Of a DNA stretch of 13,466 nucleotides, positions 1-13,466 are shown piece by piece. Position 1 is the first letter of the stretch. Every line of letters starts with the position of its first letter. The notes below the pieces were generated by a model. The model was given only the letters and a program-made list of their open reading frames with translations. It was not told where the DNA came from and did not search any database. Location of the stretch: the UHGV virus genome UHGV-0850785. One strand, 5' to 3'. A program made the translations under genes and the position numbers. This stretch comes from a virus.

Positions 1-36
1 AAAATCCCCTTAGTTTTTAAGTGGGTTTTTGTATGA
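1..36 (+). CDS. 3' end (last 11 codons) of an upstream gene cut by the window edge; function unknown, by Mu gene order possibly the DNA-circulation/tail protein
   Basis: Frame 1 is open from position 1 to TGA at 34-36; this stop overlaps ATG 33-35 of the next gene (ATGA), the same coupling pattern seen elsewhere in this operon. Far too short to identify. Confidence 0.25.
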   Translation, partial: KIPLVFKWVFV

Positions 37-929
37 ATAGGAAAAAACTAAGGGTAACGATCACCCTGAACGGAAAAAACCAAAACGGTGAGCAAAAAGT
101 ATTCGAGAGCGAATACAATCAACTGTCATCGTCAGGGCTTCGGGTTTCTTGTACCATTGTTTCGGGCAATGGAAGTTTATCGCCTACTGCTAAAATTCAG
201 GTCTATGGATTGTCGCTAACTAAAATGCTTGCGCTTTTCCGTGTGCAGTGGAATACGCTAGATGCAATGCTAAATGAAGTTGCAATCGAAGCGGGCGAAG
301 AAGGCAAGCCGTTTGAGTTGATTTATAAGGGCAATATCACAACCGCAACAATTAATATGGAGTCCGCACCCGACCCATTTTTAGACATTGATAGCGTTGT
401 CGGATTGGTTGAGCAAATGAAGCCTGCTGAGCCTTTAGCTGTCATTAACGATGTTGACGTTGCGGAAGTGGTTAGAATTATCACTGTGGACAGGATGGGC
501 TATGAGTTCGAGAACAATGGCGTATCTCAAATTATCCCTGATGGTTTCATGTCTGAGGGTGCGAACCTAGAAACAATCCGACAGTTAGCGCATGATTATG
601 ATTTCGATTTATATATTGAGCATAAATTGATTGCCATCGCCCCACGAAACACTAAGCGCGAAATCACCATCCCTCAGATAACACCAAAAGGAGGTCTTGA
701 GGGCTACCCTACCCCCGATATTAAGGGTATATCGTTTAAATGCTTTTATACTCCCCTAGTTCGCTTCGGTGGAAACTTGGAAGTAAAAGATAGTATCATT
801 GAAGTCTGCAATGGTATATGGCGCGTCTACGGCTTGAAAACCATTCTTGAAAGTGGCGTTCCAAATGGGCGCTGGTCTATGGAAGTAAATGCAACTTGGG
901 CGAATAGTACCGATGCCGTTAGAAAATGA
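33..929 (+). CDS. probable baseplate hub protein (Mu gp44 / P2 gpD position)
   Basis: About 298 aa ORF immediately upstream of the gpV-W-J-I block. Function is inferred mainly from synteny, not a recognised motif. In-frame TAA at 18-20 bounds the ORF; the track start is GTG 21, but ATG 33 forms an ATGA overlap with the upstream frame, so I prefer 33. Confidence 0.55.
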   Translation: MNRKKLRVTITLNGKNQNGEQKVFESEYNQLSSSGLRVSCTIVSGNGSLSPTAKIQVYGLSLTKMLALFRVQWNTLDAMLNEVAIEAGEEGKPFELIYKGNITTATINMESAPDPFLDIDSVVGLVEQMKPAEPLAVINDVDVAEVVRIITVDRMGYEFENNGVSQIIPDGFMSEGANLETIRQLAHDYDFDLYIEHKLIAIAPRNTKREITIPQITPKGGLEGYPTPDIKGISFKCFYTPLVRFGGNLEVKDSIIEVCNGIWRVYGLKTILESGVPNGRWSMEVNATWANSTDAVRK

Positions 930-1554
930 TCAACAGACAACGAATTATAGAGCATCCCAGAGCGTTGGCGGTGCTGCTGAATTTGAAGCCATTGTGCGCT
1001 CACTGATGGGTAAGAATCACACCTTAATGTTGGGTGAGGTGATGGCTATCACTCAAGAAGCAAGCAGCACTGATGCGGTGGGCTATCTTTCCGTCCGTCC
1101 AATGGTTTTCATGATTGATGGTTCAAACAATAACTATGAACGTGCCACGATTACTAACGTGCCTTTCTTTCGATTGCAGGCGGGCGGTAATGCAGTCATT
1201 CTAAATCCAAAAGTGGGCGATATTGGTTTGATTGCTTATTGTGAACGTGACATTTCGATGGTGAAGCGCAGCAAGCAGCAAGCAGCGCCAAACTCTCGCA
1301 GGCAGTTTAATATCAATGATGCGGTGTACTTGGGCGGTATGCTGAACGGTGCGCCTACTCAATACATTCAGTTTCTTGACAGTGGCATGAACATTAAGAC
1401 GACTGGCGATGTAAACATTAACGGCTTAACGATTGCACCGAGTGGCATTTTAACGCTTGCAAATGGCGTTGTAGTCGATACGCATATTCACGACCAAGCA
1501 AACGACAGTGACGGAAACACAGAGCAACCAGTGGGGACACCAAGAAATGGCTAA
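889..1554 (+). CDS. baseplate assembly protein V / central spike (Mu gp45, P2 gpV family)
   Basis: 221 aa with an OB-fold-like motif (PKVGDIGLIAY) and a C-terminal His-x-His (THIH, 1483-1491) typical of spike apex metal sites. Sits between hub and W/J genes. Start is ambiguous: ATG 889 has a GGAAG only 3 nt upstream, and ATG 913 is an alternative. The gene overlaps the upstream stop by 41 or 17 nt. Confidence 0.7.
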   Translation: MQLGRIVPMPLENDQQTTNYRASQSVGGAAEFEAIVRSLMGKNHTLMLGEVMAITQEASSTDAVGYLSVRPMVFMIDGSNNNYERATITNVPFFRLQAGGNAVILNPKVGDIGLIAYCERDISMVKRSKQQAAPNSRRQFNINDAVYLGGMLNGAPTQYIQFLDSGMNIKTTGDVNINGLTIAPSGILTLANGVVVDTHIHDQANDSDGNTEQPVGTPRNG

Positions 1555-1903
1555 CACTCTTTTTTTACTTCCCGATACTTGGGACTTAACATTAGATTCA
1601 AGCGGAAATATTGCTATCGCTAGTGATGTTTATCAGCAAGCACAAGACATTGCTTCTGCTTGCCGTGTGTTTCGAGGTGACATGTATTTCGATAGTGCGG
1701 AAGGTATCCCCTACTCCGAGTCGATTCTAGGCAAATCGTCTTATCCACTCGGTCTATATCAGGCAGAATTACGCAAAGCAGCCCTATCGGTTGATGGCGT
1801 GGTTAGTGCTAATATAACATTCAATAAAATTGAAAATCGGGTGCTAAGCGGCATGATTAAATTTACAAATGATCAAGATCAGACAGGAGTTGTGAGCTTA
1901 TGA
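1547..1903 (+). CDS. small baseplate protein (gpW/gp25-like or Mu gp46-like)
   Basis: About 118 aa ORF between V and J. ATG 1547 overlaps the V stop (TAA 1552-1554) and the stop overlaps the J start (ATGA at 1900-1903). The track's GTG 1508 is a possible alternative start. Family assignment is by size and position only. Confidence 0.55.
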   Translation: MANTLFLLPDTWDLTLDSSGNIAIASDVYQQAQDIASACRVFRGDMYFDSAEGIPYSESILGKSSYPLGLYQAELRKAALSVDGVVSANITFNKIENRVLSGMIKFTNDQDQTGVVSL

Positions 1904-3090
1904 TTCCTGATATTGAAATCACAGAAAATGGGATTATTGCACCCACAACAGATGAAGTTCTCGCAGGGGTTTGGGAGGTTTTAAAGACCGCATTCGGTTC
2001 AAGTTTAAATACTGCAATGAATACCCCGCAAGGGCAGTTAGCAACATCAATTACAGCGATTATTCAGAATGAGCGAAACAATTGGATTCAATTAATGAAT
2101 CAGATTGACCCGCAGTATTCTACAGGAATTTGGCAAGATGCCATCGGTGAGCTGTACTTTATCACTCGCCAATCTCAAACGTATTCAATTGCTCAAATTC
2201 GATTGTACGGCTTGAATGGCACGGTAGTTCCGTCAGGCTATAAAATCAGTGACACGGCAGGGAATATTTGGGAAACGACAACACGGTTAATTATTGACAC
2301 GACTGGTTATATTGATGGTTATGTTCAGTGTACCGTTGCAGGGGCAATCAATGCAGCCATTGGCACAATTACAAGCATCATTGTGGCGCTCTCAGGTTTA
2401 GACCGTGCAACAAATACAAGCGCAGCCGTTGCAGGTGTCAATGCTGAAAGCACGGATAACTTCGAGCAGCGCAGACAAGAGTCGGTAGCAGTAAATGCAA
2501 AACTAACCGATGCTGCGGTACGTGGCGCTGTGGCAAATTTATCAAACGTGGTCGATGTTTGGGTGAAATCAAATCCAACCGATGCTACTGTCAATTTTGG
2601 CGTGACTAATTACCCAGTGACACGGAATACTTTGCTTTGTTCTGTCGTTGGCGGTGATGATGAAGATATTGCGTGGCAGATTTTAGTAAAAGCGGGAACT
2701 GGTTGCTCGTTCGCAGGGAATACGGAAGTCACTGTTTATGACAATGACACCTACACAGTAGACCCGCCTGATTATAAAGTGAAGTTTTTGCGTCCGACAT
2801 TAAAAACGGTTAAGTTTAAAATCACGCTTGAAAATAAAAACGAAATGTCACTGCAAGATGAAAAGGCAATGAAAACCGCCATTCTTAGTGCGCTAGAAAC
2901 AGGAAAAACGCGCGCTCGCATCGGTCAAAAGCTTAGGGCTTCGGCTTATGTTTACCCAGTTAGCAGTGCATCGGATTTAAGCTTGATTAGTGTTGAGGTA
3001 AGCTTCGATGGCACAACGTGGGCTAATTATTTAGAGTTGGGCGTTGATGAATACCCAGTAACTACTGAATTCGATATTGAGGTCGCATAA
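1900..3090 (+). CDS. baseplate J-like protein (Mu gp47 / P2 gpJ family)
   Basis: 396 aa, the size and operon position of baseplate wedge J proteins. ATGA overlap with the upstream gene and TAATG overlap with the downstream gene. Confidence 0.75.
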   Translation: MIPDIEITENGIIAPTTDEVLAGVWEVLKTAFGSSLNTAMNTPQGQLATSITAIIQNERNNWIQLMNQIDPQYSTGIWQDAIGELYFITRQSQTYSIAQIRLYGLNGTVVPSGYKISDTAGNIWETTTRLIIDTTGYIDGYVQCTVAGAINAAIGTITSIIVALSGLDRATNTSAAVAGVNAESTDNFEQRRQESVAVNAKLTDAAVRGAVANLSNVVDVWVKSNPTDATVNFGVTNYPVTRNTLLCSVVGGDDEDIAWQILVKAGTGCSFAGNTEVTVYDNDTYTVDPPDYKVKFLRPTLKTVKFKITLENKNEMSLQDEKAMKTAILSALETGKTRARIGQKLRASAYVYPVSSASDLSLISVEVSFDGTTWANYLELGVDEYPVTTEFDIEVA

Positions 3091-3728
3091 TGTTTGAAGT
3101 TAAAGATACGTTGATGTCGCAGTATGCAAATAGCCCTGCAATTGTCGGGATTATTGATGGAATAGCCGATGCACTAGACCCTAATGCCACCGTGGATGAA
3201 TTTTATTCATTGCTATGGAATCTAAGCACCGCAAAGACATGGGGCTTAGATATTTGGGGACGCATTGTTGGCATGAGTCGAAACGTGCAAATGAGCGACC
3301 CCGATGCCGTAACATTCGGTTTTAAAACTAACCCTGTGTCGCAAAACTTCACACCCTTTAATGTCGCACCGTTCAGCGCAAGCGGTGCAAAATTCAACAG
3401 TTATCGACTGCCTGATAACCTCTATAAAGAGCTAATCATTATCAAGGCAGCTTCAAATATTCTCTATGCAACTGCGCCCAATATTAATAAGTATCTTCAA
3501 ATGATTTTCAGTGAAAAGGCTTACTACTACATCACGGGTCACATGACAGCAGCTTATATATTTGAATTTGAATTAACCGCATTTCAGCGTTTAATTGTCT
3601 ATACTTTGAAGTTATTACCTGAGCCGTGCGGTGTGTTAATCTCTTATGAAGAAAGAGCAGTTTCGGAGATATTTGGATTCGATGGCACAGAATATGAAAC
3701 ATTTGATAACGGAGTATTTGTTCGATGA
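3090..3728 (+). CDS. tail protein I-like baseplate protein (Mu gp48 / P2 gpI position)
   Basis: 212 aa ORF directly after J and before the fiber. Coupled by TAATG (3088-3092) and ATGA (3725-3728) overlaps. Confidence 0.6.
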   Translation: MFEVKDTLMSQYANSPAIVGIIDGIADALDPNATVDEFYSLLWNLSTAKTWGLDIWGRIVGMSRNVQMSDPDAVTFGFKTNPVSQNFTPFNVAPFSASGAKFNSYRLPDNLYKELIIIKAASNILYATAPNINKYLQMIFSEKAYYYITGHMTAAYIFEFELTAFQRLIVYTLKLLPEPCGVLISYEERAVSEIFGFDGTEYETFDNGVFVR

Positions 3729-4441
3729 GCAATCCTGATGTTATGTGGGCAAAAGCATTTGCGTGGAATGCTACAAACAGAAATACGATTCAAGATGAGC
3801 GGCAATCGTCACAAGATGCACAAGATGCCACGCTCAATGAAGGCTTTCCGCTTATCACAATGACCGCCAAAAATGCAGGAGGTATCGCTCCGAACGGTCA
3901 AGATATGAACGGTGCGCTTTATGCGATTAGTTCAGACATGGTTCATCGCCAAAAAGGTCTACGAATCCAATTTGATTCTGCCTATGCGACAAAAATCGGA
4001 GGTTATGATCAAGGCTGTATTCTTGCGTCTAACGACTACACACGTGATTACATTAGCCTTATCCCGAACAATTTAACCGATCCAAACGGTAGCGGGACTG
4101 CGGGACGTTGGGCTATATATTCAGGCGCTGGCTCTATTGCTTCTGCAACTGCGAGCATTGCGGGCATTGTTAAGATTGTTGATAGTTTGTCGAGTACCGC
4201 AACGGATGCAGCATTAACTGCTAATCAAGGTAGAATTCTGAGTGGTCTCACACAGCCAGCTACCACTACAAATGTTGGTATTACTCGATTTGCAACTGCG
4301 ACAGAGGTGGCGAATAAGTCAACTACACAAGCAGCAATTACAGCAGCAAACGCCGCAACAGTAGCGCAAAGCACAGACCTTGGTAAACAGTTCCGCCGCA
4401 TTTTTAACCACTTCCTGATTGCTGGATCGGGATACTGCTGA
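3725..4441 (+). CDS. tail fiber protein, N-terminal (baseplate-attachment) region only; 3' end runs into the junction
   Basis: Follows the gpI-like gene, as the fiber does in Mu/P2. Contains the conserved fiber N-terminal motif pattern (GIVKIVDSLSSTATDAALTANQG ... GITRFATATEVANKSTTQAAIT). At 238 aa it is far shorter than typical fibers. The last ~20 codons (after ~4380) read as antisense of the convergent gene, and no fiber chaperone gene follows. Confidence 0.65.
   Translation: MSNPDVMWAKAFAWNATNRNTIQDERQSSQDAQDATLNEGFPLITMTAKNAGGIAPNGQDMNGALYAISSDMVHRQKGLRIQFDSAYATKIGGYDQGCILASNDYTRDYISLIPNNLTDPNGSGTAGRWAIYSGAGSIASATASIAGIVKIVDSLSSTATDAALTANQGRILSGLTQPATTTNVGITRFATATEVANKSTTQAAITAANAATVAQSTDLGKQFRRIFNHFLIAGSGYC
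4319..4441. other. breakpoint zone between the myovirus baseplate module and the podovirus structural module (best estimate ~4380)
   Basis: Convergent ORFs 3725..4441 (+) and 4319..6139 (-) overlap by 123 nt. Each ORF's terminal ~20 codons are the antisense reading of the other's protein-like sequence. Composition and strand polarity switch here. Confidence 0.5.
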
Positions 4442-6139
4442 AAGCTGCGTGATGACCTGCGAAGGCATTATGCCAGTCTGAGCCACAAGCCGAACAACCC
4501 CATCATGAGTGGAGGCATCATTAATACGAAAGTTCTGCGCCATTTCTGTGTAATCAGCAGCTTTCTGCATTGACTTGTTGCTTGGGTCTAATTTTTCACC
4601 TATTGTCAGCGCCTCATTGAATCTGCGTGAATCCCGTTGCGCCTGAATTGCTTCATTTGATCTCTGAAGCAATGCAGACAATTTTCCGTAAGCATCGAGT
4701 TTTAACGCATAGTGAGGATCGTTAACCTCAGGCTTCACTTTCTGCATTTCTTCTTGCTGCTGAGAAGGAGGCAAATACTGAATTGCCTGGAATATTCTCG
4801 CGTTATCAATCGCTATATCCAGTTGATTGATTATTTTATCTGCGTTTTTTCCATACCCCCTGATGATGGTCTCCTGAGCCGGTATATAATCTGGAACCTC
4901 ACCGTTATATAGCTGGGCCATGGTGTTATTAATAGCTGGCTCAAGCTGTTCTAATATTAACTTCCTTTGCTTTTCTATCTGACTATTAGCAAGGTTATCT
5001 ATTTGATAAATAGTCAGCGGATCCATTCCAGTTTTATTTTTTCTATATCGGGAAAGCCACCCTTGTGTTTCTGATGGAAGATTTCGGATAAATTCTTCTT
5101 CTGATATTTCACCTTTACGTGGATCACCGACTTTGGCGATCAGTTTATCCACGTTACCCATCCCCCAGTTATATGCTGCTCCGGTCAATATTTCGGAACC
5201 GTACTTACCATACAGTTGATTTACATAGTCACTGGCGAGCATTTCATGCTGTTGTTCGTCCGTAGGGTTGTATTCAACGCCACGCTTGGCCGCCAGTTCT
5301 TTTCCTGTGCCCGGCATTAACTGGTATTTCCCCTGGGCTCTCTCTCCAGAAGATGTTATCGGTCCCTCAAGAAGACTACCATCAGGATTAAAATGTCGAT
5401 CACCTGATTCAACAAGGCGTATGGCAAGCATGTCCATGCCTCCAGAATCATTTTTCTGAAACAGACCATTTAGCCATCCTTCTGGATTGGCAGCGGCATA
5501 ATTCTTCGCCCGCATTTCTGTGGCACTGCGATCATCACTTTCTATTTCTTCCAGAATGCGTTCTTGTGACCATCCCCTGGCAGCTCCATATCTGGCAATG
5601 GCTACCATTCTGGAATTTCTGGCTAAAGTGGCAGTTTGCGGGTCATTCCAGGCATCCGCTTCATTTTGTATCCATAATTTTCTCGTTGCCTGATATTGCT
5701 CATCTTCATAGGCATTTGTCTGCCCTATCTCATGTCTGAGAACTCCAGTACTGAACTGAATTTTCTGTGTTCTGGCTTGTTGCAAAAACATATTTCTTGC
5801 TGCTTCATCAGTCAATGAAGCAGCTATTTCTTCCACATCCTGATCAAATCCAGATATGTACTCTTGCCCCTTACCAATCGCATTTTTGCCTTGTTGTGCA
5901 TAAAAACCGGTTTGAGGGTTATAAAGACGTTCATTGCTGCGCTGATTAAGCTGAAGGATGGCATCCTGAGACAATGCAACATTCGCTTTCTGCCTGGCTT
6001 CACCATATGCCACCGCATACTGATCTGCGACATTCGCCAGCACCTGACCTGCTTGAGGAACATCGAAGGTCTGAAAACCACCGGTTTGCACACCACGACT
6101 TTGCACCTGGCGTCCGGATGTAGTAGGAACAACAGGCAT
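4319..6139 (-). CDS. internal virion protein with lytic transglycosylase (SLT) domain (T7 gp16-type ejection protein); C-terminal ~19 residues probably not native
   Basis: 606 aa. Residues ~240-330 carry the classic SLT signature (LVESGDRHFNP ... GKYQLMPGTG ... AAYNWGMGNV), with the putative catalytic Glu at residue 244 (coords ~5408-5410). Strong RBS GGAGG 6 nt upstream (6146-6150); ATG overlaps the stop of the upstream gene (ATGA). The terminal Cys-rich tail (VCALRYCCGVCCCNCCLCS, 4319-4378) is the antisense of GCA/GCT-rich fiber codons. Confidence 0.8.
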   Translation of the reverse strand: MPVVPTTSGRQVQSRGVQTGGFQTFDVPQAGQVLANVADQYAVAYGEARQKANVALSQDAILQLNQRSNERLYNPQTGFYAQQGKNAIGKGQEYISGFDQDVEEIAASLTDEAARNMFLQQARTQKIQFSTGVLRHEIGQTNAYEDEQYQATRKLWIQNEADAWNDPQTATLARNSRMVAIARYGAARGWSQERILEEIESDDRSATEMRAKNYAAANPEGWLNGLFQKNDSGGMDMLAIRLVESGDRHFNPDGSLLEGPITSSGERAQGKYQLMPGTGKELAAKRGVEYNPTDEQQHEMLASDYVNQLYGKYGSEILTGAAYNWGMGNVDKLIAKVGDPRKGEISEEEFIRNLPSETQGWLSRYRKNKTGMDPLTIYQIDNLANSQIEKQRKLILEQLEPAINNTMAQLYNGEVPDYIPAQETIIRGYGKNADKIINQLDIAIDNARIFQAIQYLPPSQQQEEMQKVKPEVNDPHYALKLDAYGKLSALLQRSNEAIQAQRDSRRFNEALTIGEKLDPSNKSMQKAADYTEMAQNFRINDASTHDGVVRLVAQTGIMPSQVITQLSAVSRSSNQEVVKNAAELFTKVCALRYCCGVCCCNCCLCS

Positions 6140-6714
6140 CAGTAACCTCCTATTTTGAATCGGGAGTCAGAATTCATAAAACCTGAGTTAGATAACATTG
6201 GCGTCCCACCACTAGATGTACTTCCTTTAGAGAACGGACTCCACGTCCCACCAAACATCTGGTACGCACCGTATGCCTTCAGAGGCGCAGTGAGCAATGT
6301 TGTTGCTGCTCCCACATTCCCCTGTTTACGGGCTGAACTGGCTTCTGCTTTATAGTTGGCAGCCTGAACCTGATAACCGTAAGCCTCGCGTTGCGCGTTA
6401 TTCACCGTCGTCAGCGAATCAAGAGCGCCAAACTGGGCAGTGTCGCCAAATATATCCAGCGCGTTACCTGTAGATAAATCAGCGCCGGTAGCCCCCATTG
6501 TCGCCGCCTGTGTACCAAGCCGCTGTCGGGTCTCTCTGCGCCGTTGCTCAGCTTCAGCGTTACCTCTGTTTATTGCATCATTTGCCTGAGCTGTGGCTAT
6601 ATCTGCGTTCGCTTCTGCAACCTTCGAGGCATACTTTCCCTGTTGGTACTGGGTGTATGCCTGAATGCCACTCATGGCGAGCATTGCGCCACCAGCAATA
6701 ACCGGATCGCACAT
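6139..6714 (-). CDS. putative internal virion protein (T7 gp14 position); Gly/Ala/Gln/Thr-rich
   Basis: 191 aa with a hydrophobic N-terminal segment (PVIAGGAMLAMSGIQAY) followed by a low-complexity region. GGAGA RBS 7 nt upstream; TAATG overlap with the upstream gene and ATGA overlap with the SLT gene. Function is from position only. Confidence 0.55.
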   Translation of the reverse strand: MCDPVIAGGAMLAMSGIQAYTQYQQGKYASKVAEANADIATAQANDAINRGNAEAEQRRRETRQRLGTQAATMGATGADLSTGNALDIFGDTAQFGALDSLTTVNNAQREAYGYQVQAANYKAEASSARKQGNVGAATTLLTAPLKAYGAYQMFGGTWSPFSKGSTSSGGTPMLSNSGFMNSDSRFKIGGY

Positions 6715-7178
6715 TATTTTCTCTCCATGTGAAATCTGTGGAAATTAAGACCAAGAGCACCATAAGGCGCGGCTTCTTCAAGCCTGAATCCAAGCCAGTG
6801 CAGCCATGCTTTGGCAACATGGTTTCGCTCGTCGACGTAGTTTTCCAGGCGCGGATAAACTGCCAGCATCTGCTGCAATACCGGGCGGCAGTGGCGCAGA
6901 AATGTCTTCTGATATTTTTCAATACGGCTGGTCCCGACCAGCCAGGGCGTACCATTGCCACCGATCATTGACGCCGGAGATACACCAAACATGGTTACCA
7001 GTTCTCTGTTCGCGAACCCTGACCAGGCCATAGTCGCAGTGCGCAGACCAACACGCAGCGCATCTTCGGTAGTCATCAGCGATACCGCATACAGTTCGTC
7101 AATATCAGCCTGACGAACATCCGGCAAAATCATCTGAAGATGCTCTTCGGTTGCGGGAATAATTTGAACATCGATCAT
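6714..7178 (-). CDS. hypothetical virion protein (T7 gp13 position)
   Basis: 154 aa ORF. ATGA overlap with the tail tubular B stop (7176-7180); GGGGGA 5 nt upstream. No motif I can name with confidence. Confidence 0.5.
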   Translation of the reverse strand: MIDVQIIPATEEHLQMILPDVRQADIDELYAVSLMTTEDALRVGLRTATMAWSGFANRELVTMFGVSPASMIGGNGTPWLVGTSRIEKYQKTFLRHCRPVLQQMLAVYPRLENYVDERNHVAKAWLHWLGFRLEEAAPYGALGLNFHRFHMERK

Positions 7179-9649
7179 CAGAATCCCCCAACAGTAAGGC
7201 GAGGAATAACGGCAAGAACAGACAGCGGCAACGGGTCAAGCTGACGGATTTTTACACGTCCGTTTTTGCCCCAGTTACTGTCCAGCTTCACTTCTACTTT
7301 TCCGGTAGCATCATCAACAGGATCATCGTAGAACTCGAATTCACGCTGTGGATATTCGTACCATTTACCGCCGGGCGTAGTCGCCCAGATGCCGCGACTG
7401 GCATTCACAACCAGAGTAACGGACGGGATCACCTGTTTTTTGTCCAGCAGCGTTTCCTGTCCGTTAATGTTGATATCCAACGTTTCGAATTCAGCAGTTA
7501 TTGGCAGGCCGATGTGCACAACAGCCCCCGGTGATTCCAGCGTGACGGCACCTCCGGAAACTACTTTCTGTGGTTCCACGTTCGCATCAGAGAGGATGTT
7601 TACGGTCTGACCTTCAAGATGAGACAAGCCTCCAAATGTCCGGAGCGCCATCTGCCAGTTCGTGGTGGCCACATTCCTGAGGGATGGCGGGACGTTCCTG
7701 TTAGCACGAACCACTACAGCGGTATTGCTGGTTACAGAAATAATGTCGCAACGTAATTCTTTTGACACTTCATCGCCAGTATCAGGATCAGTTCCGGTAT
7801 AAGGGAACTGTAGTTGCGCACCGACATCACTACTGGTGAAGTACGCACCACCAGAAACACTGATTGTATATTCCGCACGGTAATCCCATTCACCAGAACC
7901 ACCAGTGATGGTCATCGTTCTGTCAGACGTATTTCTTCCATCATAGCTAAGGCCAGAATCAACAAAGAAAGCATCTTCATCGCTGGTAAATAAACGGCTG
8001 GACAGTCTCTCGATGTATCTCACTGTTTGCCCGTTAACGGTTCGGTTAACGACGAAATACACCGCATCTTCATTGCCTTCGCTGATACTGCATGTGCTTT
8101 CATATTTTCCGGTACTGGATTGTGGTGCCCATGCAAAAACCTGCTGATCACGCAAATAGGTCATCACCAGTAATTTACCGTCATCACGAATGCAGAAGGC
8201 GCTGGAGTAAGGGACAATAGAGAAGCACCAGTCAACAATGCTGTGCTTCTGAAAAAGATGATTGGCAAGGATGGTCAGGTCGTTCCCCTGATAGCCGTCA
8301 ACATCGAATGAATAGGCCAGATCACGGACAACACTGCCTTTCTCCTGGACGAACAGAGCAATATTCGCCACGGCAATTGGTGGGACGTTGCTTGAGCCAT
8401 TTGATCCCTGAGAGCTGAATGCAAATGATGATGGGGTTAACACTTTGTTCTGGTCGCCGGTGATGACGTACTCACCTCCGGAAGTCAGCGCCACCAGCGA
8501 ACCAACATCAATCAGGTGGCGGATCTCATTAACCTGACGCCCGGCATAGGTGTAGATAATTCTGTCGTCATCCTGCGTAGGATTGCTTTTGCCAAAATCC
8601 TTATAATCCCCAGTACGGCTGGCCCAGATAGTCTGAGGGAACGCTGTCGATGCGGCGAAGTAAAGACGTTGTTGATAATAAACAACAGTGCCAGGATAAC
8701 CGTTAACACTATTCCAGGCATATTTAGCCCATTTATAGCTGGCATTATCCTCGCCAACTACCTGCGAAGGGATATAGGAAATCACCTCAGCAGTTGCAGT
8801 AGTTCCATTTGCAGCAGAGATACGGGCAATGCCAAAACCACTGTGCAGATACTCCCACTCAATGCCAGTATCATCATCACCGGATCCGCCCCAGCCATCC
8901 CATGATGTTCCTTCTGTATGCGAAGGGCGCAAAGTGCCTGTTTTGCCTGCTGTAACGGCGCGATAGTAGTTACTGTCTGCACGGCGAATATCGCCAATCG
9001 ATGTACTCTTACTTGTTTCCCATACCGGCACTGAATCCACTGCAGGCTGTTCCAGATAGAACAATTTGCCTACCTGCTCCGCGCCAAAAATAGAGGCGCT
9101 TGCCGTTAACGTAATTGTCCCGGTGCTGGCGCTGGCATAAACCGTCACTGACTCGTCAATATTGATATCTTCAAATGGACCGTTCTTCGTTACCACATCA
9201 ACCAGTTGCCAGTTGTCATGAGCATATCGGCGCAACTCTTTCGGCGGGTATGCAGGGTGAACCAGCGTAAGCACGTCGGCGCTTTGCGTGAATTTAATTC
9301 GGAACAGATCGGCTTCAGTATATGGCGTGGCAATTTCATAAATAACATTGCTGCTGTTCAGCACCAACGCACCATCTTTGATAACGCGCATGTACTGGTG
9401 TCCGAACTCCAGAGCATAAGTCTGAACCGTCGAGAACTGGAACGGGATCAGGCGGCATTTCCGATTTGGGTATTTGGCGGCACCGACAAAACGCGTACCA
9501 GGTCGATTCTCAACTCCGCCATACTGCCGCACGATAAAGTTATCGCACTTGCGCAATGCCACCTGGTACTTCGCCATGTCGATACGACCGTACAACGACG
9601 GTCCAATTTCACCACCGGCAAAGCTGGGCTGGATCCAACTGATAGCCAT
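7178..9649 (-). CDS. tail tubular protein B / nozzle (T7 gp12 family)
   Basis: 823 aa. N-terminus MAISWIQPSFAGGEIGPSLYGRIDMAKYQ ... ENRPGTRF matches the pattern I associate with gp12-like nozzle proteins. Size and position directly after a gp11-like gene fit; ATGA overlap at 9647-9651. Confidence 0.75.
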   Translation of the reverse strand: MAISWIQPSFAGGEIGPSLYGRIDMAKYQVALRKCDNFIVRQYGGVENRPGTRFVGAAKYPNRKCRLIPFQFSTVQTYALEFGHQYMRVIKDGALVLNSSNVIYEIATPYTEADLFRIKFTQSADVLTLVHPAYPPKELRRYAHDNWQLVDVVTKNGPFEDINIDESVTVYASASTGTITLTASASIFGAEQVGKLFYLEQPAVDSVPVWETSKSTSIGDIRRADSNYYRAVTAGKTGTLRPSHTEGTSWDGWGGSGDDDTGIEWEYLHSGFGIARISAANGTTATAEVISYIPSQVVGEDNASYKWAKYAWNSVNGYPGTVVYYQQRLYFAASTAFPQTIWASRTGDYKDFGKSNPTQDDDRIIYTYAGRQVNEIRHLIDVGSLVALTSGGEYVITGDQNKVLTPSSFAFSSQGSNGSSNVPPIAVANIALFVQEKGSVVRDLAYSFDVDGYQGNDLTILANHLFQKHSIVDWCFSIVPYSSAFCIRDDGKLLVMTYLRDQQVFAWAPQSSTGKYESTCSISEGNEDAVYFVVNRTVNGQTVRYIERLSSRLFTSDEDAFFVDSGLSYDGRNTSDRTMTITGGSGEWDYRAEYTISVSGGAYFTSSDVGAQLQFPYTGTDPDTGDEVSKELRCDIISVTSNTAVVVRANRNVPPSLRNVATTNWQMALRTFGGLSHLEGQTVNILSDANVEPQKVVSGGAVTLESPGAVVHIGLPITAEFETLDININGQETLLDKKQVIPSVTLVVNASRGIWATTPGGKWYEYPQREFEFYDDPVDDATGKVEVKLDSNWGKNGRVKIRQLDPLPLSVLAVIPRLTVGGF

Positions 9650-10254
9650 CAGGACAACCTCGCAATGGTAAACTCGTCAACCGGTGGCAGTGGTTCCTGT
9701 GATTCATTCTGGCTATGCGAGCCAGCACTAAGAATCACGCGATTGTACATATTGAGGGCAAACGTACCGAGGTCTGCATTCCCAGTCAGCGCCATGTTAA
9801 TAGCTGCCGCAAGACGCCAGGCCAACGCCTCCATAAAAATGGCATCAAACATGTTCACATCTGAAACGCGAGAGACATACTTGAGCCATGCCTGCGGCTG
9901 GTCTGTGTAGATCAACTTTCCTGTTCCGTTGGTGTCTGCACCAACTTCGTACTGAACGCGCATTGCTGCTGTTGGATTGCGTACACCAGGAAGCATAATT
10001 TCAGTAATGCGCAGACAATCTGACGGGTACTGATACGCATATTCCCAGTCAGGCGGTGGATTGCTCGTATCTGCAAGCGCCACGCGTTTGGTAGCAAAGT
10101 TCCAGTCAAAATCAGAAAGCACAGCATCACGGCAGGCCTCAAAGTGCAGCGAACATTCCCCCGCTTCCTTGCTGGCTTCCGTCAGGCTGTTAATGCTGCG
10201 GCTATTGCCAATATTGGACAGCGCACGATTGCAGATCTCTACTACAGAGGCCAT
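9649..10254 (-). CDS. tail tubular protein A / adaptor (T7 gp11 family)
   Basis: 201 aa, similar in size to T7 gp11 (~196 aa), immediately upstream of the gp12-like gene. TAATG overlap with the upstream gene at 10252-10256. Confidence 0.7.
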   Translation of the reverse strand: MASVVEICNRALSNIGNSRSINSLTEASKEAGECSLHFEACRDAVLSDFDWNFATKRVALADTSNPPPDWEYAYQYPSDCLRITEIMLPGVRNPTAAMRVQYEVGADTNGTGKLIYTDQPQAWLKYVSRVSDVNMFDAIFMEALAWRLAAAINMALTGNADLGTFALNMYNRVILSAGSHSQNESQEPLPPVDEFTIARLS

Positions 10255-10577
10255 TACTCACCCCCATTGCCGTACAGGGTTTCAGCCGCTGATTTTTCTA
10301 CATCCCCGGAAACAGGAGCGATCGCCATATCAGTGATCTGCAGATCGGCGCTGCGATTAACCCCATCGTCAGTTTCTCTGGCAGACAGGCCTCGAATAAC
10401 AGCCTTTGCAGTTATCATCACTTCTGTTCCGACGCCCTGAGGTTGCGCCTTCAGCTTATTCAATGTGTCGTTATTAAGAGTGATGCACAGCCCCCACGGG
10501 TATTCATCGCGAGTTCTGGTTTCTCCGCTCTCATCCTGGTAGCTGTCAGTGCCGGTTTTGAGGTTTACGAGTTCCAT
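10254..10577 (-). CDS. hypothetical small structural protein (~107 aa)
   Basis: ORF directly upstream of and overlapping the gp11-like gene. The track start GTG 10583 lies inside the AGGAG RBS (10583-10587); ATG at 10575-10577 has 5-nt spacing, so I prefer it. Confidence 0.5.
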   Translation of the reverse strand: MELVNLKTGTDSYQDESGETRTRDEYPWGLCITLNNDTLNKLKAQPQGVGTEVMITAKAVIRGLSARETDDGVNRSADLQITDMAIAPVSGDVEKSAAETLYGNGGE

Positions 10578-10594
10578 ATACACTCCTGCAATAA

Positions 10595-10610
10595 AGGGGC
10601 CGAAGCCCCT
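10595..10610 (-). terminator. intrinsic-terminator-like hairpin (6-bp G/C-rich stem, UUCG tetraloop) followed by UUUAUU
   Basis: Minus-strand sequence AGGGGC-TTCG-GCCCCT then TTATTG, in the 44-nt gap between the 111-aa and 107-aa genes. The downstream RBS follows immediately, suggesting an attenuator rather than a full stop. Confidence 0.5.
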
Positions 10611-10627
10611 TGTCTGATCCGCGAGGC

Positions 10628-10963
10628 TTACACGCCCAGTTCTTTACGCTTATCTGCGATCTTCTCGCGGAGCGTTTCGGCTTTGGCGTTATGGTGTGGC
10701 TTCTCGTTAAAGAGCAATTCGTACTCTTCACGGAGCTTATCCAGTTCACCATCATCTGACACATCGTTGATGATTTTGGTGCTGGTTGCTGCCATTGACA
10801 CCTTTCCTGCAATTTTTGCTTTTGCCTGTCTGGCTGCATCGTTAACAGGTTCCAGTGCGCTACCAGGCTCACCTTCGTATTCGATTTCTGCCCCCTCCGG
10901 CCACAGAGTGTTATGGATATGAGAGAGGCGCAGAACGCGGTATCTTGGTTTCTCACCTGACAT
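10628..10963 (-). CDS. hypothetical small head-associated protein (~111 aa), highly charged C-terminal helix
   Basis: ORF between the 145-aa gene and the hairpin. The track start GTG 10972 lies within the RBS AAGGTGA; ATG 10961-10963 has 5-nt spacing. C-terminus is Lys/Glu-rich (DKLREEYELLFNEK ... REKIADKRKELGV). Confidence 0.5.
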   Translation of the reverse strand: MSGEKPRYRVLRLSHIHNTLWPEGAEIEYEGEPGSALEPVNDAARQAKAKIAGKVSMAATSTKIINDVSDDGELDKLREEYELLFNEKPHHNAKAETLREKIADKRKELGV

Positions 10964-10973
10964 CGATATCACC

Positions 10974-11411
10974 TTAACCAGTTACTTTTGAGCGGATCGG
11001 ATACGGCGTATTGGCATCAACATCAAGACTGATACCAGCAGTGAATTCGCCAGCCGTTAGTGGGCCAGTTGCGACGGAGTAGTTAACACGCAGATATCGC
11101 TGAACACCGGCAGGCACCTTTGCAGAAACAACTCGTTTACCTGCTGTCAGGGCGGTCTTTGCCAGTGCGCCACTATCATAAATAGTGGTCCATGAGCTGT
11201 TATTCTCACTCGTCTGCAACTGGATGTTTACAGTTGCATCACCGCTTGCCGCGGCGGCTGTGTTAACCAGCGCCCAAAACTCAAGCGGGTAACCCACGCC
11301 GATATCACGACGTTTTCCGTCAATTGGACCGAGATCGATTACGTCAGTAGAAGCCGCGGTATTCGTAACCGCCTGAGCTTCGGAGAACATCAACAGTTTG
11401 TCGGTGATCAT
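10974..11411 (-). CDS. hypothetical protein, possible capsid decoration/accessory protein (145 aa)
   Basis: First gene after the major capsid gene, with a GGAG RBS 7 nt upstream. Thr/Ala/Ser/Val-rich composition suggests a beta-rich fold. Function is from position only. Confidence 0.5.
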   Translation of the reverse strand: MITDKLLMFSEAQAVTNTAASTDVIDLGPIDGKRRDIGVGYPLEFWALVNTAAAASGDATVNIQLQTSENNSSWTTIYDSGALAKTALTAGKRVVSAKVPAGVQRYLRVNYSVATGPLTAGEFTAGISLDVDANTPYPIRSKVTG

Positions 11412-11462
11412 CTTCTTTCTCCATTAGTGGGTCTGTTACGACCAACAGGTTAATAACAGGCG

Positions 11463-12455
11463 TTACACCACGCGGGCTTCTGTTTCCAGAAGCGCATCAG
11501 TTTCACGGATTGGTACACCACGGAATGAAGTCCACCACTCGCCTTCAGTCTCTTTTACGCTGATAGCCAGAGATGTTTTCTCCAGAGATTGCAGATCAAG
11601 AGCCTGGCCTACAGTGCGGTTCATGTAGAACACCGGGCGACCCATGCCACGGTTTGGAATGCGATGCAGTGCTTTAACCATCAACTTCGCAATATTTGCG
11701 GCAGAGGAAGGTTCTGAAAGATTGCTGACATCGATGTTTGCAATGCGAACAACATAACGCCAGTCACGCAGAGCAAGTCCGTTGTCCCATTTGTAATGGG
11801 TACGGTAGCCTTCGTACTTGCCGCCATTAACATCTTCCAGTGTCACCTGGCCTTTATCTTCCATCTGGATTCCAGCCTTCTGCCCTTTCGGGAAGATGCC
11901 ATGCACGGTGTTTTCGCCCCACACCACTAACCAGATTGAGGTGTTATCTGTACCCGTGCCACCAGCATCAATGATGTTCTGAGCATTACCCGCAGACAGG
12001 CTGGAATAGCGGGAGGACAGTCCCATAAACTGCTGAGGGTTAACGCTGGAATCACCATAAAACAACGTCTGCGCCATCTGCTGATTCATCGCTTCAATAA
12101 ATGCGCGGTCTTCAGACAGGCGGAATTCGGCGGTATTACCGTTCAGATCAGCCAGTGACTTATCGACTTCAGCATAGGTTTCCAGCATTCCAACGGAATC
12201 GGTGACCTGCACTGTGGTTGATTTGCTTGGCTGTACGCCATAGTTCAGCAAACGCCAGGTGGCTGAAGGTAAACCAGAACGAATGGTGGTTCGGTGTCCG
12301 GTAGGAAGGTTCCCTTCGACAAAAGGCATATCCTGAAGGATCGGGTTAGTTTGACCGAGAAGCTCGATAATCTTATCGACTTTCCCGTTTGGATCGACGC
12401 GCTTACCCCAGTCAGCCAGCGTTAGCGCAGTTAAGCCTTTAACAGCCATTGTCAT
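11463..12455 (-). CDS. major capsid protein
   Basis: 330 aa, directly downstream of the scaffold gene. The N-terminal region (LADWGKRVDPNG ... ILQDMPFVEGNLPTGH ... AFIEAMNQQMAQTLFYG) resembles podovirus major capsid proteins I recall. The second ATG (12447-12449) has better RBS spacing (GAGAGGA 8 nt upstream), so the true start may be 12449. Confidence 0.8.
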   Translation of the reverse strand: MTMAVKGLTALTLADWGKRVDPNGKVDKIIELLGQTNPILQDMPFVEGNLPTGHRTTIRSGLPSATWRLLNYGVQPSKSTTVQVTDSVGMLETYAEVDKSLADLNGNTAEFRLSEDRAFIEAMNQQMAQTLFYGDSSVNPQQFMGLSSRYSSLSAGNAQNIIDAGGTGTDNTSIWLVVWGENTVHGIFPKGQKAGIQMEDKGQVTLEDVNGGKYEGYRTHYKWDNGLALRDWRYVVRIANIDVSNLSEPSSAANIAKLMVKALHRIPNRGMGRPVFYMNRTVGQALDLQSLEKTSLAISVKETEGEWWTSFRGVPIRETDALLETEARVV

Positions 12456-12463
12456 TTCCTCTC

Positions 12464-13159
12464 TTATTTGCCATAGAGCACTTCGGCCGCACTACGCTGG
12501 CCTTCATTACCACCGGTGACCATGCCATCTTCAGACATCGCCTTTCCGATTTTCACGAACGTTTTGACCAGATCAGGGTGATTACCCAGCCCGGTGGTGT
12601 TCAGATATTCTTTGAGCTCAGGTGTCCCGAACTGGTCAAGCGCACGCTGTGCGGCGCTAAGGTTAGAAATCAACTTGTCGCCACCGATTTCTTTGTCAGC
12701 TTTTACATCCGCAGCCCACTGCTCGGTTGTTTTCTGCCAGGCTTCTGCCTGGCGCTGCTGAACACCTGCCAGAATCTTCGGATAAGCATCAACCAGCTTT
12801 TGCGCTTGCTCGTTGGTCAGGTTTAGTTCTCGAGCCACCGGCTCGAACTCCTTCAACGCTTCTGTATCCAGCTCTACGCCTTCGGCAGCCTGAAACTCGT
12901 ACTTCTCAGGCGCACCCTCTGGTTTATCGCCGTCCTTTTTTTCATCCTGCTTATCGTTTTCAGACTTTTTGTCATCAGCAGGTTTATCGCCATCAGCAAC
13001 AGGTTGTGGCTTATCACCTTCCTGTTGTGATGGATCACCAACTGGAGCAGGGTTATCACCTGCAGGCGCTGACGGTTCTGACGCAGCCGGAGCTGCTCCA
13101 CCATCGACTGGTTGCTCATTGCAAAGACGGCGATACAGCAAACGCTCAAATAAATTCAT
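12464..13159 (-). CDS. scaffolding protein
   Basis: ~231 aa immediately upstream of the capsid gene. Acidic Pro/Asp/Lys-rich low-complexity N-terminal half with GDKP repeats, then a helical region. The track start GTG 13165 sits in the AGGAG RBS; ATG 13157-13159 has 5-nt spacing. Confidence 0.7.
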   Translation of the reverse strand: MNLFERLLYRRLCNEQPVDGGAAPAASEPSAPAGDNPAPVGDPSQQEGDKPQPVADGDKPADDKKSENDKQDEKKDGDKPEGAPEKYEFQAAEGVELDTEALKEFEPVARELNLTNEQAQKLVDAYPKILAGVQQRQAEAWQKTTEQWAADVKADKEIGGDKLISNLSAAQRALDQFGTPELKEYLNTTGLGNHPDLVKTFVKIGKAMSEDGMVTGGNEGQRSAAEVLYGK

Positions 13160-13161
13160 GA

Positions 13162-13458
13162 TCACTCCTGTTCACTGGCCTCTTTGGCCATCTTCAAATA
13201 CTGTTCAGGGCAATGCGCCATAACGCGCTGAAACAGTTCCAGCGCCAGATTGCGTTGCCCCTCATTAAATGCCATTGCCATAGCGTCCATCGGTGAGATA
13301 GCGGAAAACACACGGCCTTTCTCCAGCACCGACCAGACAACGCGACGCCCCTGTTCACTGCTCATGACAAAGCGAATGTCATCAATTTCACGCTGCGCCA
13401 TGTCACGTTGCTTACGGGCGTTTTCTTCTTTCAGTTGATCGTCTTCGTAATCTGTCAT
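13162..13458 (-). CDS. hypothetical small acidic protein (98 aa) between the presumed portal gene and the scaffold gene
   Basis: ORF whose stop (TGA 13162-13164) lies in the scaffold RBS/spacer. Its ATG (13456-13458) overlaps a TGA (13455-13457) that would end a minus-strand gene entering from the right edge (ATGA). No recognisable motif. Confidence 0.5.
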   Translation of the reverse strand: MTDYEDDQLKEENARKQRDMAQREIDDIRFVMSSEQGRRVVWSVLEKGRVFSAISPMDAMAMAFNEGQRNLALELFQRVMAHCPEQYLKMAKEASEQE

Positions 13459-13466
13459 TGTGATTG

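What the first reader, a model, noticed from the sequence alone, without database searches (positions are those of the whole stretch)
10581..10627. UUCG-tetraloop hairpin attenuator separating head genes from tail genes
The only sizeable gap inside the podovirus operon carries a perfect 6-bp G/C-rich stem with a UUCG tetraloop followed by UUUAUU on the coding (minus) strand, then immediately the RBS and start of the next gene. T7-like phages place a terminator after the capsid gene to over-express head proteins relative to tail proteins. Here it sits after capsid plus two small genes, implying those two are made at capsid-like stoichiometry (decoration or cement candidates).
Basis: partly seen in the sequence, partly recalled or inferred. 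Interest (0 to 1): 0.4.

Follow-up and report, generated by a model that had tools for sequence, protein, structure and literature searches.

The report
Conserved terminator-like hairpin in phage operon
A short, very stable RNA hairpin followed by a U-rich stretch sits between two small genes of an epsilon15/phiV10-type phage structural operon; it is real and conserved and looks like a weak transcription terminator, but the same feature is already annotated in phage epsilon15 and it does not divide head genes from tail genes.

Summary
The hairpin is real. On the minus strand it reads AAGGGGC-UUCG-GCCCCUU (10611..10594, -12.7 kcal/mol), then UAUUGC, the SD AGGAG and the ATG at 10577.

Energy alone is not exceptional. 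Position, U-rich tail and conservation are. Every relative with the order capsid-gp8-gp9-|-gp10-gp11-gp12 has one hairpin at this spot, in 21 sequence variants. These include compensatory A-U/G-C changes, other loops and sense-strand G.U pairs.

The window is a Uetakevirus structural operon, about 98% identical to phiV10 and TL-2011b. The epsilon15 RefSeq record already marks the homologous stem-loop as a predicted rho-independent terminator.

- The downstream gene is the homologue of the epsilon15 gp10 capsid "staple" (PDB 3J40), a head protein.
- It is not the only gap. The capsid-gp8 gap (11412..11462) holds a second conserved hairpin without a U tract.
- The first small gene is a Bbp16-family cement protein, as guessed. 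The second is of unknown function.

Best reading: a partial intrinsic terminator and/or 3'-end stabiliser that lowers downstream mRNA. No transcript data exist. Ordinary and already known; interest is low.

The parts
10594..10611 (-). HP2, the hairpin of the finding: AAGGGGC (10611..10605), UUCG loop (10604..10601), GCCCCUU (10600..10594)
   Evidence: Sequence. Fold -12.7 kcal/mol, z -3.0. Conserved with compensatory changes in 21 variants. The covariance model finds one hit per locus, always at this gap on the sense strand.
10588..10595 (-). U-rich tract UUUAUUGC. Its first two U can pair with the AA at the base of the stem.
   Evidence: Sequence. TransTermHP-style tail score -4.16. Tail columns are 0.82 identical and U-rich in all enteric relatives, but not in two high-GC relatives.
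10612..10627 (-). 16-nt spacer between the stop codon of the gp9-like gene and the stem (GCCUCGCGGAUCAGAC). It is poorly conserved except for GCC(U/C)C.
   Evidence: Column identity 0.59 against 0.90-0.94 for the hairpin. Alignment.
10583..10587 (-). Shine-Dalgarno AGGAG of the gp10-like gene. It lies 6 nt after the stem and 5 nt before the ATG at 10577.
   Evidence: Sequence. The stem-to-SD distance is 4-7 nt in nearly all relatives.
10628..10963 (-). gp9-like gene (111 aa), function unknown, upstream of the hairpin
   Evidence: phiV10p12 / epsilon15 gp9 homologue. No Pfam or PDB match; phrog_590, unknown function.
10254..10577 (-). gp10-like capsid staple protein gene (107 aa), immediately downstream of the hairpin
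   Evidence: PDB 3J40_N gp10, E 2e-21. Pfam PF21628 Gp10-like, E 1e-51. NCBI name 'capsid staple protein'.
10974..11411 (-). gp8-like Bbp16-family capsid cement protein gene (145 aa)
   Evidence: Pfam Bbp16, E 5e-47. PDB 3J4U_H and 8CJZ_B by sequence. The AF2 model hits 8CJZ and 3J4U_H.
11427..11446 (-). HP1, a second conserved intercistronic hairpin in the capsid-gp8 gap: GUUGGUC-GUAACA-GACCCAC. The window's copy carries a U11444.C11429 mismatch. There is no U tract, and SD GGAG follows.
   Evidence: Covariation count: 96.4% paired, G-C/A-U and C-G/U-A exchanges.
11463..12455 (-). Major capsid protein gene (epsilon15 gp7 family)
   Evidence: Pfam PF20911 GP7, E 9e-149. Annotated as major head protein in phiV10 and TL-2011b.
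7178..10254 (-). gp11- and gp12-like tail genes (T7 tubular-tail A/B analogues), the first true tail genes downstream
   Evidence: PHROG tail protein families, E 4e-86 and 0. The epsilon15 annotation cites T7 tail tubular protein A.

Best explanation
HP2 is a factor-independent (intrinsic) terminator-type RNA hairpin inside the late structural operon of an epsilon15/phiV10-like podovirus. The operon is presumably read by host RNA polymerase (assumed; not checked here).

Proposed mechanism: as the polymerase transcribes past the gp9-like stop codon, the C(UUCG)G-capped 7-bp G/C-rich stem folds in the nascent RNA over the interrupted U tract UUUAUUG. A fraction of polymerases release there. The retained 3' hairpin also protects the upstream capsid-gp8-gp9 mRNA from 3'-exonucleases. 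The net effect is more capsid-module mRNA than downstream mRNA (gp10 staple, tail tube, internal virion proteins).

Termination is expected to be partial, for two reasons. The U tract is short and interrupted. The stem also begins only 16 nt after the stop codon, where a terminating ribosome can still interfere.

Shown: the structure, its single-copy position, its conservation as a sense-strand RNA helix, and its conserved U-rich tail in enteric relatives.

Inferred: that it terminates transcription, how efficiently, and that it stabilises the upstream RNA.
For: - Anatomy: 5 G-C plus 2 A-U pairs, UUCG loop, 5 U in the 6 nt after the G/C core, and AA upstream able to pair with UU.
- TransTermHP-style scores are hairpin -9.5 and tail -4.16. 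This passes that program's candidate cut-offs and is rare in random sequence, 9 per 1.5 Mb.
- Conservation: all loci with the gene order capsid-gp8-gp9-gp10-gp11-gp12 carry one hairpin here, down to 34% gp10 identity. There are 21 distinct variants, and 125 of 126 inner pairs are canonical.
- On alignment A3, 96.8% of cells are paired. Seven cells changed on both sides, against 1.2 in shuffles (0 of 500 shuffles reach this).
- The G.U pairs in L129 and L140 fit only the sense-strand RNA.
- Loops are mostly stable tetraloops (UUCG, GAAA).
- The hairpin columns are 0.90-0.94 identical, against 0.59 for the 5' spacer.
- The U-rich tail is specific to HP2. The sister hairpin HP1 has A-rich tails.
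- The covariance model finds exactly one copy per locus.
- The epsilon15 RefSeq record annotates the homologous stem-loop (7664..7686) as a rho-independent terminator.
- The operon-end terminators annotated in epsilon15 have longer U runs than HP2, which fits partial strength.
- In E. coli, terminators closer than about 30 nt to a stop codon are partly repressed by the ribosome. Termination efficiency was 0.12 to 0.8 at 17-18 nt (PMC4824070).
Against: - No transcript 3'-end or coverage data exist for this phage group.
- Two high-GC relatives (L100 Stenotrophomonas, L103) keep a strong hairpin at the same place but have no U tract. That fits a stability or processing role better than canonical termination.
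- The sister hairpin HP1 also lacks a U tract.
- The gene immediately downstream encodes the capsid staple, which is needed in about the same copy number as the capsid protein. A strong terminator here would be counter-productive.
- The simple consensus scan did not call it.
Confidence: 0.6

Rival explanations
1. HP2, like HP1, is an mRNA processing and stability element rather than a terminator. After endonucleolytic cleavage in the flanking single-stranded spacer, the hairpin acts as a 3' barrier to exonucleases for the upstream segment. It may also act as a 5' cap-like stem that protects the downstream gp10 (or gp8) message from 5'-end-dependent RNase E decay. This would set segmental mRNA half-lives without releasing the polymerase.
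For: - Two analogous hairpins bracket gp8-gp9. Each starts 15-17 nt after a stop codon and ends 3-8 nt before the next SD, and HP1 has no U tract at all.
- High-GC relatives keep HP2 without a U tract.
- More distant relatives place strong U-less hairpins right after the capsid or gp8 genes.
- Both hairpins precede genes for capsid accessory proteins (gp8 cement family, gp10 staple) that need high expression.
Against: - In every moderate-GC host the tail of HP2 is U-rich and nearly invariant (T at 4 of 5 tail columns, 0.77-0.95 identity), whereas HP1 tails are A-rich. So the U tract itself looks selected.
- No cleavage-site evidence exists.
- This explanation is not exclusive of the terminator explanation.
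Confidence: 0.22
2. The hairpin serves translation of the gp10 staple gene. Sitting 4-7 nt upstream of the SD, it would keep the SD single-stranded and insulated from upstream sequence, or couple gp10 initiation to gp9 termination. In the minimum-energy fold, the CCU just after the gp9 stop pairs with the AGG of the SD around the hairpin.
For: - The stem-to-SD spacing is tightly conserved, and it persists in relatives without a U tract.
- The minimum-energy fold of the gap pairs GCCUCGCGG with UUGCAGG around the hairpin.
- GCC(U/C)C after the stop codon is conserved in enteric relatives.
Against: - The outer helix shows no consistent covariation. Changes in L006, L131 and L089 break it rather than compensate (inspection).
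- It appears in only about 8% of the ensemble and is largely absent from the centroid.
- A stable hairpin is not needed to expose an SD.
Confidence: 0.1
3. It is a regulated attenuator in the strict sense. An alternative pairing, for example GCCUC after the stop with the GGGGC 5' arm, or a protein or antiterminated polymerase, would switch the terminator on or off.
For: GCCUC (GCCCC in the Cronobacter-type relatives) is complementary to the 5' arm GGGGC and lies just under a terminating ribosome.
Against: - It is only a 5-bp helix with a 12-nt loop, set against a -12.7 kcal/mol hairpin.
- It is absent in epsilon15, Pantoea and Rahnella-type relatives, which keep the hairpin.
- There is no Rfam match in the window.
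- No antiterminator gene is annotated in epsilon15.
Confidence: 0.04
4. It has no RNA function. It would be a chance palindrome, a dispersed repeat (REP-like), or a DNA-level protein-binding site.
For: Hairpins of similar energy occur by chance several times per window. The region z-score is unremarkable.
Against: - One copy per locus, always at the same gap and strand.
- Compensatory changes and complete stem replacement with the structure kept.
- G.U pairs that would be A.C mismatches on the other strand or in a DNA palindrome.
Confidence: 0.04

Closest known systems
Predicted rho-independent terminator annotated between gp9 and gp10 of Salmonella phage epsilon15 (RefSeq NC_004775.2, stem_loop 7664..7686 on +, 7647..7681 on -)
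   Same: Same genus (Uetakevirus) and same gap between homologous genes. It has a G/C-rich 7-bp stem and a tetraloop, a U-rich tail, and then the SD and start of the staple gene.
   Different: The sequence differs: CGGGGCC-AUUC-GGCCCCG plus CUUUUCUAU in epsilon15, against AAGGGGC-UUCG-GCCCCUU plus UAUUG here. The epsilon15 gap is 64 nt rather than 50 and has an extra small upstream hairpin. The epsilon15 annotation is a prediction, not an experiment.
Phage T7 terminator T-phi, downstream of capsid gene 10 (own knowledge)
   Same: A partial terminator inside a podovirus structural gene cluster, placed after the capsid module and before the tail-tubular genes 11 and 12. The gene order here is syntenic: gp11/gp12-like tail genes, a T7-gp14-family protein and an SLT protein.
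   Different: T-phi acts on T7 RNA polymerase, whereas this phage group presumably uses host polymerase (not checked here). T-phi directly follows the capsid gene. Here two genes (cement-family gp8, and gp9) precede the hairpin and one further head gene (gp10 staple) follows it.
C(UUCG)G hairpins of E. coli and phage T4 intercistronic regions and terminators (Tuerk et al. 1988; own knowledge)
   Same: The same extra-stable tetraloop with a C-G closing pair, in an intercistronic region of a phage late transcript.
   Different: That is a motif class rather than a homologous family. In relatives the loop is exchangeable here (GAAA, GGAU, AUUC, UUUC, UUCA).
Intercistronic stem-loops that set differential mRNA stability within operons (e.g. 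malEFG REP, Rhodobacter puf, pap; own knowledge)
   Same: A stable hairpin between cistrons that could protect the upstream segment. HP1 in particular has this anatomy, with no U tract.
   Different: It is single-copy, not a dispersed REP family. HP2 carries a conserved U tract.

Membership tests
Intrinsic (rho-independent) transcription terminator | G/C-rich stem of about 5-14 bp with a short loop (3-8 nt) in the nascent RNA | tested here: met
   7-bp stem with 5 G-C pairs, 4-nt UUCG loop, -12.7 kcal/mol. TransTermHP-style hairpin score -9.5 to -11.3.
Intrinsic (rho-independent) transcription terminator | U-rich tract of about 7-9 nt immediately 3' of the stem | tested here: inconclusive
   UUUAUUGC has 5 U in 8 counted from the G/C core, but only 3 in 8 after the full 7-bp stem. 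Tail score is -4.16 against a cut-off of -2.5. The consensus scan did not list it. The tract is shorter and more interrupted than in the operon-end terminators of epsilon15. It is absent in two high-GC relatives.
Intrinsic (rho-independent) transcription terminator | Located on the transcribed strand downstream of a stop codon, outside coding sequence | tested here: met
   It starts 16 nt after TAA 10630..10628 on the operon strand, in a 50-nt non-coding gap.
Intrinsic (rho-independent) transcription terminator | RNA 3' ends / polymerase release at the U tract, without Rho | not testable with these tools
   No Term-seq, RNA-seq or in vitro data were found for Uetakevirus late transcripts.
Intrinsic (rho-independent) transcription terminator | Structure, rather than sequence, maintained in evolution | tested here: met
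   21 variants with 96.8% pairing, compensatory A-U/G-C changes, and replaced stems and loops in distant relatives.
Regulated attenuator (terminator/antiterminator switch) | A conserved, mutually exclusive alternative structure or a known ligand- or protein-binding leader | tested here: not met
   No Rfam hit. The candidate alternative pairings (GCCUC:GGGGC, CCU:AGG) are weak and do not covary.
Dispersed repetitive extragenic palindrome (REP-like) | Many copies per genome | tested here: not met
   The covariance model R1 finds exactly one hit in the window and one per related locus.
   The first downstream gene is the gp10 capsid staple homologue. The upstream genes in the window include a protease and a Bbp19-like protein, and in relatives the portal gene too, none needed in capsid-like numbers (their copy numbers are own knowledge).

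The most novel reading that the evidence does not exclude
HP1 and HP2 could form a matched pair of intercistronic hairpins. Each begins about 16 nt after a stop codon and ends about 6 nt before the SD of a capsid-accessory gene (gp8 cement family, gp10 staple). Together they would work as dual-purpose processing and stability modules: a 3' barrier for the upstream message and a 5' protective stem for the downstream one. This would tune capsid : cement : staple stoichiometry after transcription, with termination only a side effect.

A linked possibility concerns which small protein is the 420-copy external cement in epsilon15-like phages. It may be the Bbp16-family gp8, as in BPP-1 and PhiXacm4-11, rather than gp10. 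In that case HP2 really would mark the end of the high-copy capsid genes.
Probability: 0.15. Interest if true: 0.45.

Novelty: already known. Interest (0 to 1): 0.15.

Why it matters
If it works as proposed, the hairpin is one of the dials that set how much capsid-module mRNA is made relative to tail and internal-virion mRNA in a widespread group of temperate enterobacterial podoviruses (phiV10, TL-2011b, epsilon15). This is a routine kind of phage gene-dosage control, and it is already predicted in the epsilon15 annotation. The practical value is modest: better annotation of Uetakevirus prophages, and a compact natural part (hairpin plus SD) for tuning expression. The more interesting by-products are the second conserved hairpin after the capsid gene and the unresolved question of which small protein is the 420-copy cement in these capsids.

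Tried and rejected
- Rfam scan of the whole window at E <= 1: no hit.
- The built-in promoter/terminator scan did not list the hairpin. I traced this to how it counts the tail after the maximal stem, and re-scored with the published TransTermHP parameters.
- SD-masking outer helix (CCU:AGG plus GC:GC) and a GCCUC:GGGGC antiterminator: considered and rejected as main functions, because they are weak and do not covary.
- REP-like repeat: rejected, single copy.
- Two viral-contig scans returned only 100%-identical loci and added no diversity. Diversity came from the genome scan and from distant-protein queries.
- MAFFT put the divergent hairpins out of structural register. I therefore counted pairs on loop-centred, ungapped subsets.
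- gp8/gp10 paralogy: rejected by profile-profile comparison.
- The epsilon15 genome paper and Baker et al. 2013 could not be read because they are not held. A search for 8CJZ in papers found nothing.
- No transcriptomic data for the late operon in the vB_EcoP_ZX5 paper.

Full report
**What the window is.** Bases 4384..13466 are about 98% identical to the temperate Escherichia podoviruses phiV10, TL-2011b, phiv142-3 and vB_EcoP_ZX5. They are 76-82% identical to Enterobacter phage Tyrion, Salmonella phages 65FD and PAT1, and a Klebsiella prophage. These belong to the genus Uetakevirus, whose type member is Salmonella phage epsilon15.

All genes of this part lie on the minus strand. In order of transcription they are:
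- a Bbp19-like protein (13458..13162)
- a protease (13165..12464)
- the major capsid protein of the epsilon15 gp7 family (12455..11463)
- a 145-aa Bbp16-family protein (11411..10974)
- a 111-aa protein of unknown function, gp9-like (10963..10628)
- a 107-aa gp10-like protein (10577..10254)
- gp11- and gp12-like tail proteins (10254..7178)
- two internal virion proteins
- a truncated SLT-domain protein

**The observation.** On the minus strand the gp9-like gene ends with TAA at 10630..10628. After a 16-nt spacer come AAGGGGC (10611..10605), UUCG (10604..10601) and GCCCCUU (10600..10594). Then follow UAUUGC, the Shine-Dalgarno AGGAG (10587..10583) and ATG at 10577.
- The stem is 7 bp (5 G-C, 2 A-U), and the loop is the extra-stable C(UUCG)G type.
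- The hairpin alone folds at -12.7 kcal/mol and holds 72% of the ensemble, with z = -3.0 against shuffles.
- Energy alone is not rare. The wider 66-nt region has z = -0.67, and shuffled windows contain about five hairpins of -12 kcal/mol or better.
- The built-in consensus scan did not list it, because after the full 7-bp stem only 3 of the next 8 bases are U.
- I re-scored it with the TransTermHP scheme, using parameters read from PMC1852404. The 5-bp G/C core scores -9.5 and the tail UUUAUUGCAGGAGUG scores -4.16. Both pass that program's candidate cut-offs.
- It is the best hairpin-plus-tail candidate on the operon strand. Only 9 candidates as good occurred in 1.5 Mb of random sequence of the same GC content.
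- The statement that this is the only sizeable gap is wrong. The capsid-gp8 gap (11462..11412) is 51 nt. All other junctions are 14 nt or less, or overlap.

**Conservation.** I collected 141 loci that encode a gp10 homologue, from phage records, IMG/VR contigs and GTDB genomes.
- Every locus with the order capsid-gp8-gp9-gp10-gp11-gp12 has one strong hairpin (-11 to -23 kcal/mol) just upstream of the gp10 SD. This holds down to 34% gp10 identity, in Stenotrophomonas.
- There are 21 distinct hairpin variants, and 125 of 126 of the six inner pairs are canonical.
- The sixth pair alternates A-U and G-C. Loops are UUCG in most variants, but also UUCA, GAAA, GGAU, AUUC, UUUC and CUC.
- The stem is wholly replaced in L100, L103 and L140 while the structure is kept.
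- On an ungapped 22-sequence alignment, 96.8% of cells are paired. Seven cells changed on both sides, against 1.2 in shuffles (0 of 500 shuffles reach this). The slide control is weak here because the arms are G and C runs.
- The G.U pairs in L129 and L140 make sense only for the sense-strand RNA.
- Hairpin columns are 0.90-0.94 identical, against 0.59 for the 5' spacer.
- A covariance model built from these sequences finds exactly one hit per locus, always at this gap and on the coding strand. So it is not a dispersed repeat.
- In distant phages where the gp10 gene sits elsewhere (upstream of the protease and capsid genes, or after gp11), no hairpin precedes it. Strong hairpins there follow the capsid or gp8 genes instead.

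**The tail.** In all relatives from moderate-GC hosts the sequence after the G/C core is U-rich: UUUAUUG, UUUCUUG, UUUUUUG, UUCUUG, UUUACUCU, UUUCUUUUC or CUUUUCUAU. The U positions are nearly invariant. Two high-GC relatives keep the hairpin but have no U tract. The operon-end terminators annotated in epsilon15 have longer U runs than the gp9/gp10 hairpin. This fits a terminator of partial strength. In E. coli, a terminator placed less than about 30 nt after a stop codon is partly repressed by the terminating ribosome. Termination efficiency was 0.8 in one series and 0.12 in another at 17-18 nt (PMC4824070). The stem here starts 16 nt after the stop.

**Already annotated.** The RefSeq record of epsilon15 (NC_004775.2) carries a stem_loop feature labelled 'rho-independent terminator; transcriptional termination' at 7664..7686 (+), and one at 7647..7681 (-). 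Both lie in the homologous gp9-gp10 gap. Its sequence is CGGGGCC-AUUC-GGCCCCG followed by CUUUUCUAU. That is a prediction; I found no experimental mapping.

**Why the head/tail reading fails.**
- The gene immediately downstream matches PDB 3J40 chain N, epsilon15 gp10 (E 2e-21; 43% identity by tblastn). It is Pfam PF21628, and NCBI names it 'capsid staple protein'.
- gp10 is described as the second capsid protein of epsilon15, sitting between capsomers (PMC3863775; PMC12391199).
- So a head protein needed in about capsid-protein numbers lies downstream of the hairpin. The first true tail genes begin one gene further on.

- The 145-aa protein just after the capsid gene is Pfam Bbp16 (E 5e-47). 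It matches the BPP-1 cement protein 3J4U_H (E 1.5e-25) and the Carin1 capsid decoration protein 8CJZ.
- An AF2 model of modest quality (pLDDT 66) also finds these two as its best structural matches.
- The gp9-like protein has no assignable function.

**A second hairpin.** The capsid-gp8 gap holds another conserved hairpin, HP1 (11446..11427).
- In 69 close relatives it is GUGGGUC-GUAACA-GACCCAC (-12.4 kcal/mol).
- Other relatives have AUGGGCC-...-GGCCCAU, AGCGGCCCG-GUAA-CGGGCUGCU, GGCGGGCC-GCG-GGCCCGCC and others.
- On 16 ungapped sequences 96.4% of cells pair, against 16-50% when slid. There are G-C/A-U and C-G/U-A exchanges.
- It starts 15-17 nt after the capsid stop codon and has no U tract. 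The SD of the cement-family gene follows directly.
- The window's own copy has a G-to-U change that leaves a U.C mismatch and weakens it.
- epsilon15 lacks HP1, having only a 12-nt gap.

**Mechanism.** The best-supported reading (confidence about 0.6) is a partial intrinsic terminator that also leaves a protective 3' hairpin on the capsid-module message. This would lower downstream mRNA relative to upstream mRNA.

The main rival (about 0.2, and not exclusive) is a pure processing and stability element. The U-less sister hairpin and the U-less high-GC relatives favour it.

A role in presenting or coupling the gp10 ribosome-binding site (about 0.1) is suggested by the very tight stem-to-SD spacing of 4-7 nt. 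However, the candidate SD-masking helix is weak and does not covary. A regulated attenuator, a chance palindrome or a DNA-level site are unlikely.

**Verdict.** It is a conserved terminator-type hairpin already predicted in the type phage of the genus, and it is mis-framed as a head/tail divider. Interest is low (0.15). Transcript 3'-end mapping and a two-reporter assay with stem and U-tract mutants would settle the mechanism.

Noticed in passing
window 11427..11446 (minus strand), in the 51-nt capsid-gp8 gap 11412..11462: A second conserved intercistronic hairpin (HP1). Relatives show rich covariation (GUGGGUC-GUAACA-GACCCAC in 69 loci, and quite different stems elsewhere). It starts 15-17 nt after the capsid stop codon, has no U tract, and the SD of the cement-family gene follows directly. 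The window's own copy has a G-to-U change that gives a U.C mismatch.
   Followed up: yes
window 10974..11411 and 10254..10577 (minus strand); epsilon15 gp8/gp10; BPP-1 Bbp16/Bbp20: These phages encode both a Bbp16-family cement homologue (gp8) and the gp10 'staple'. In BPP-1 (3.5 A) and PhiXacm4-11 (3.16 A) the external 420-copy dimer is the cement protein encoded next to the capsid gene (Bbp16 in BPP-1; gp26, whose family I did not test, in PhiXacm4-11). In epsilon15 (4.5 A) that position was assigned to gp10. BPP-1 also has a gp10 homologue, Bbp20. The two families are unrelated by profile comparison. The AF2 model of the gp10-like protein has no PDB neighbour, not even 3J40. Which protein is the cement in Uetakeviruses deserves a re-check.
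   Followed up: partly
window 1..4441 (+ strand) and the junction near 4384: The left 4.4 kb encodes a myovirus baseplate module: hub, Baseplate_J, DUF2612 and a tail-fibre repeat. It is only about 67% identical at the nucleotide level to Acinetobacter AB1-like phages. Its GC content is 0.43-0.45, against 0.50-0.52 for the rest. It converges on the Uetakevirus operon, whose SLT gene is cut to 606 aa. No complete E. coli genome contains this junction. Possible explanations are a chimeric assembly or an unusual recombinant or remnant prophage.
   Followed up: partly
loci L133-L137, L099, L138 (relatives): In more distant phages the gp10-family gene has moved, either upstream of the protease and capsid genes or after gp11. 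There it has no hairpin in front of it, while strong U-less hairpins follow the capsid or gp8 genes.
   Followed up: partly
window 5799..5824: A 26-nt near-perfect palindrome, GCUGCUUCAU-...-AUGAAGCAGC (-14 to -16 kcal/mol on either strand), lies inside the SLT-protein coding region. On the + (antisense) strand it is listed as terminator-like, with tail UAUUUCUUCC.
   Followed up: no
window 12735..12754: A stable hairpin (-13.5 to -15 kcal/mol, GCCAGGC-AGAA-GCCUGGC on the minus strand) lies inside the protease gene. It has no U tract.
   Followed up: no
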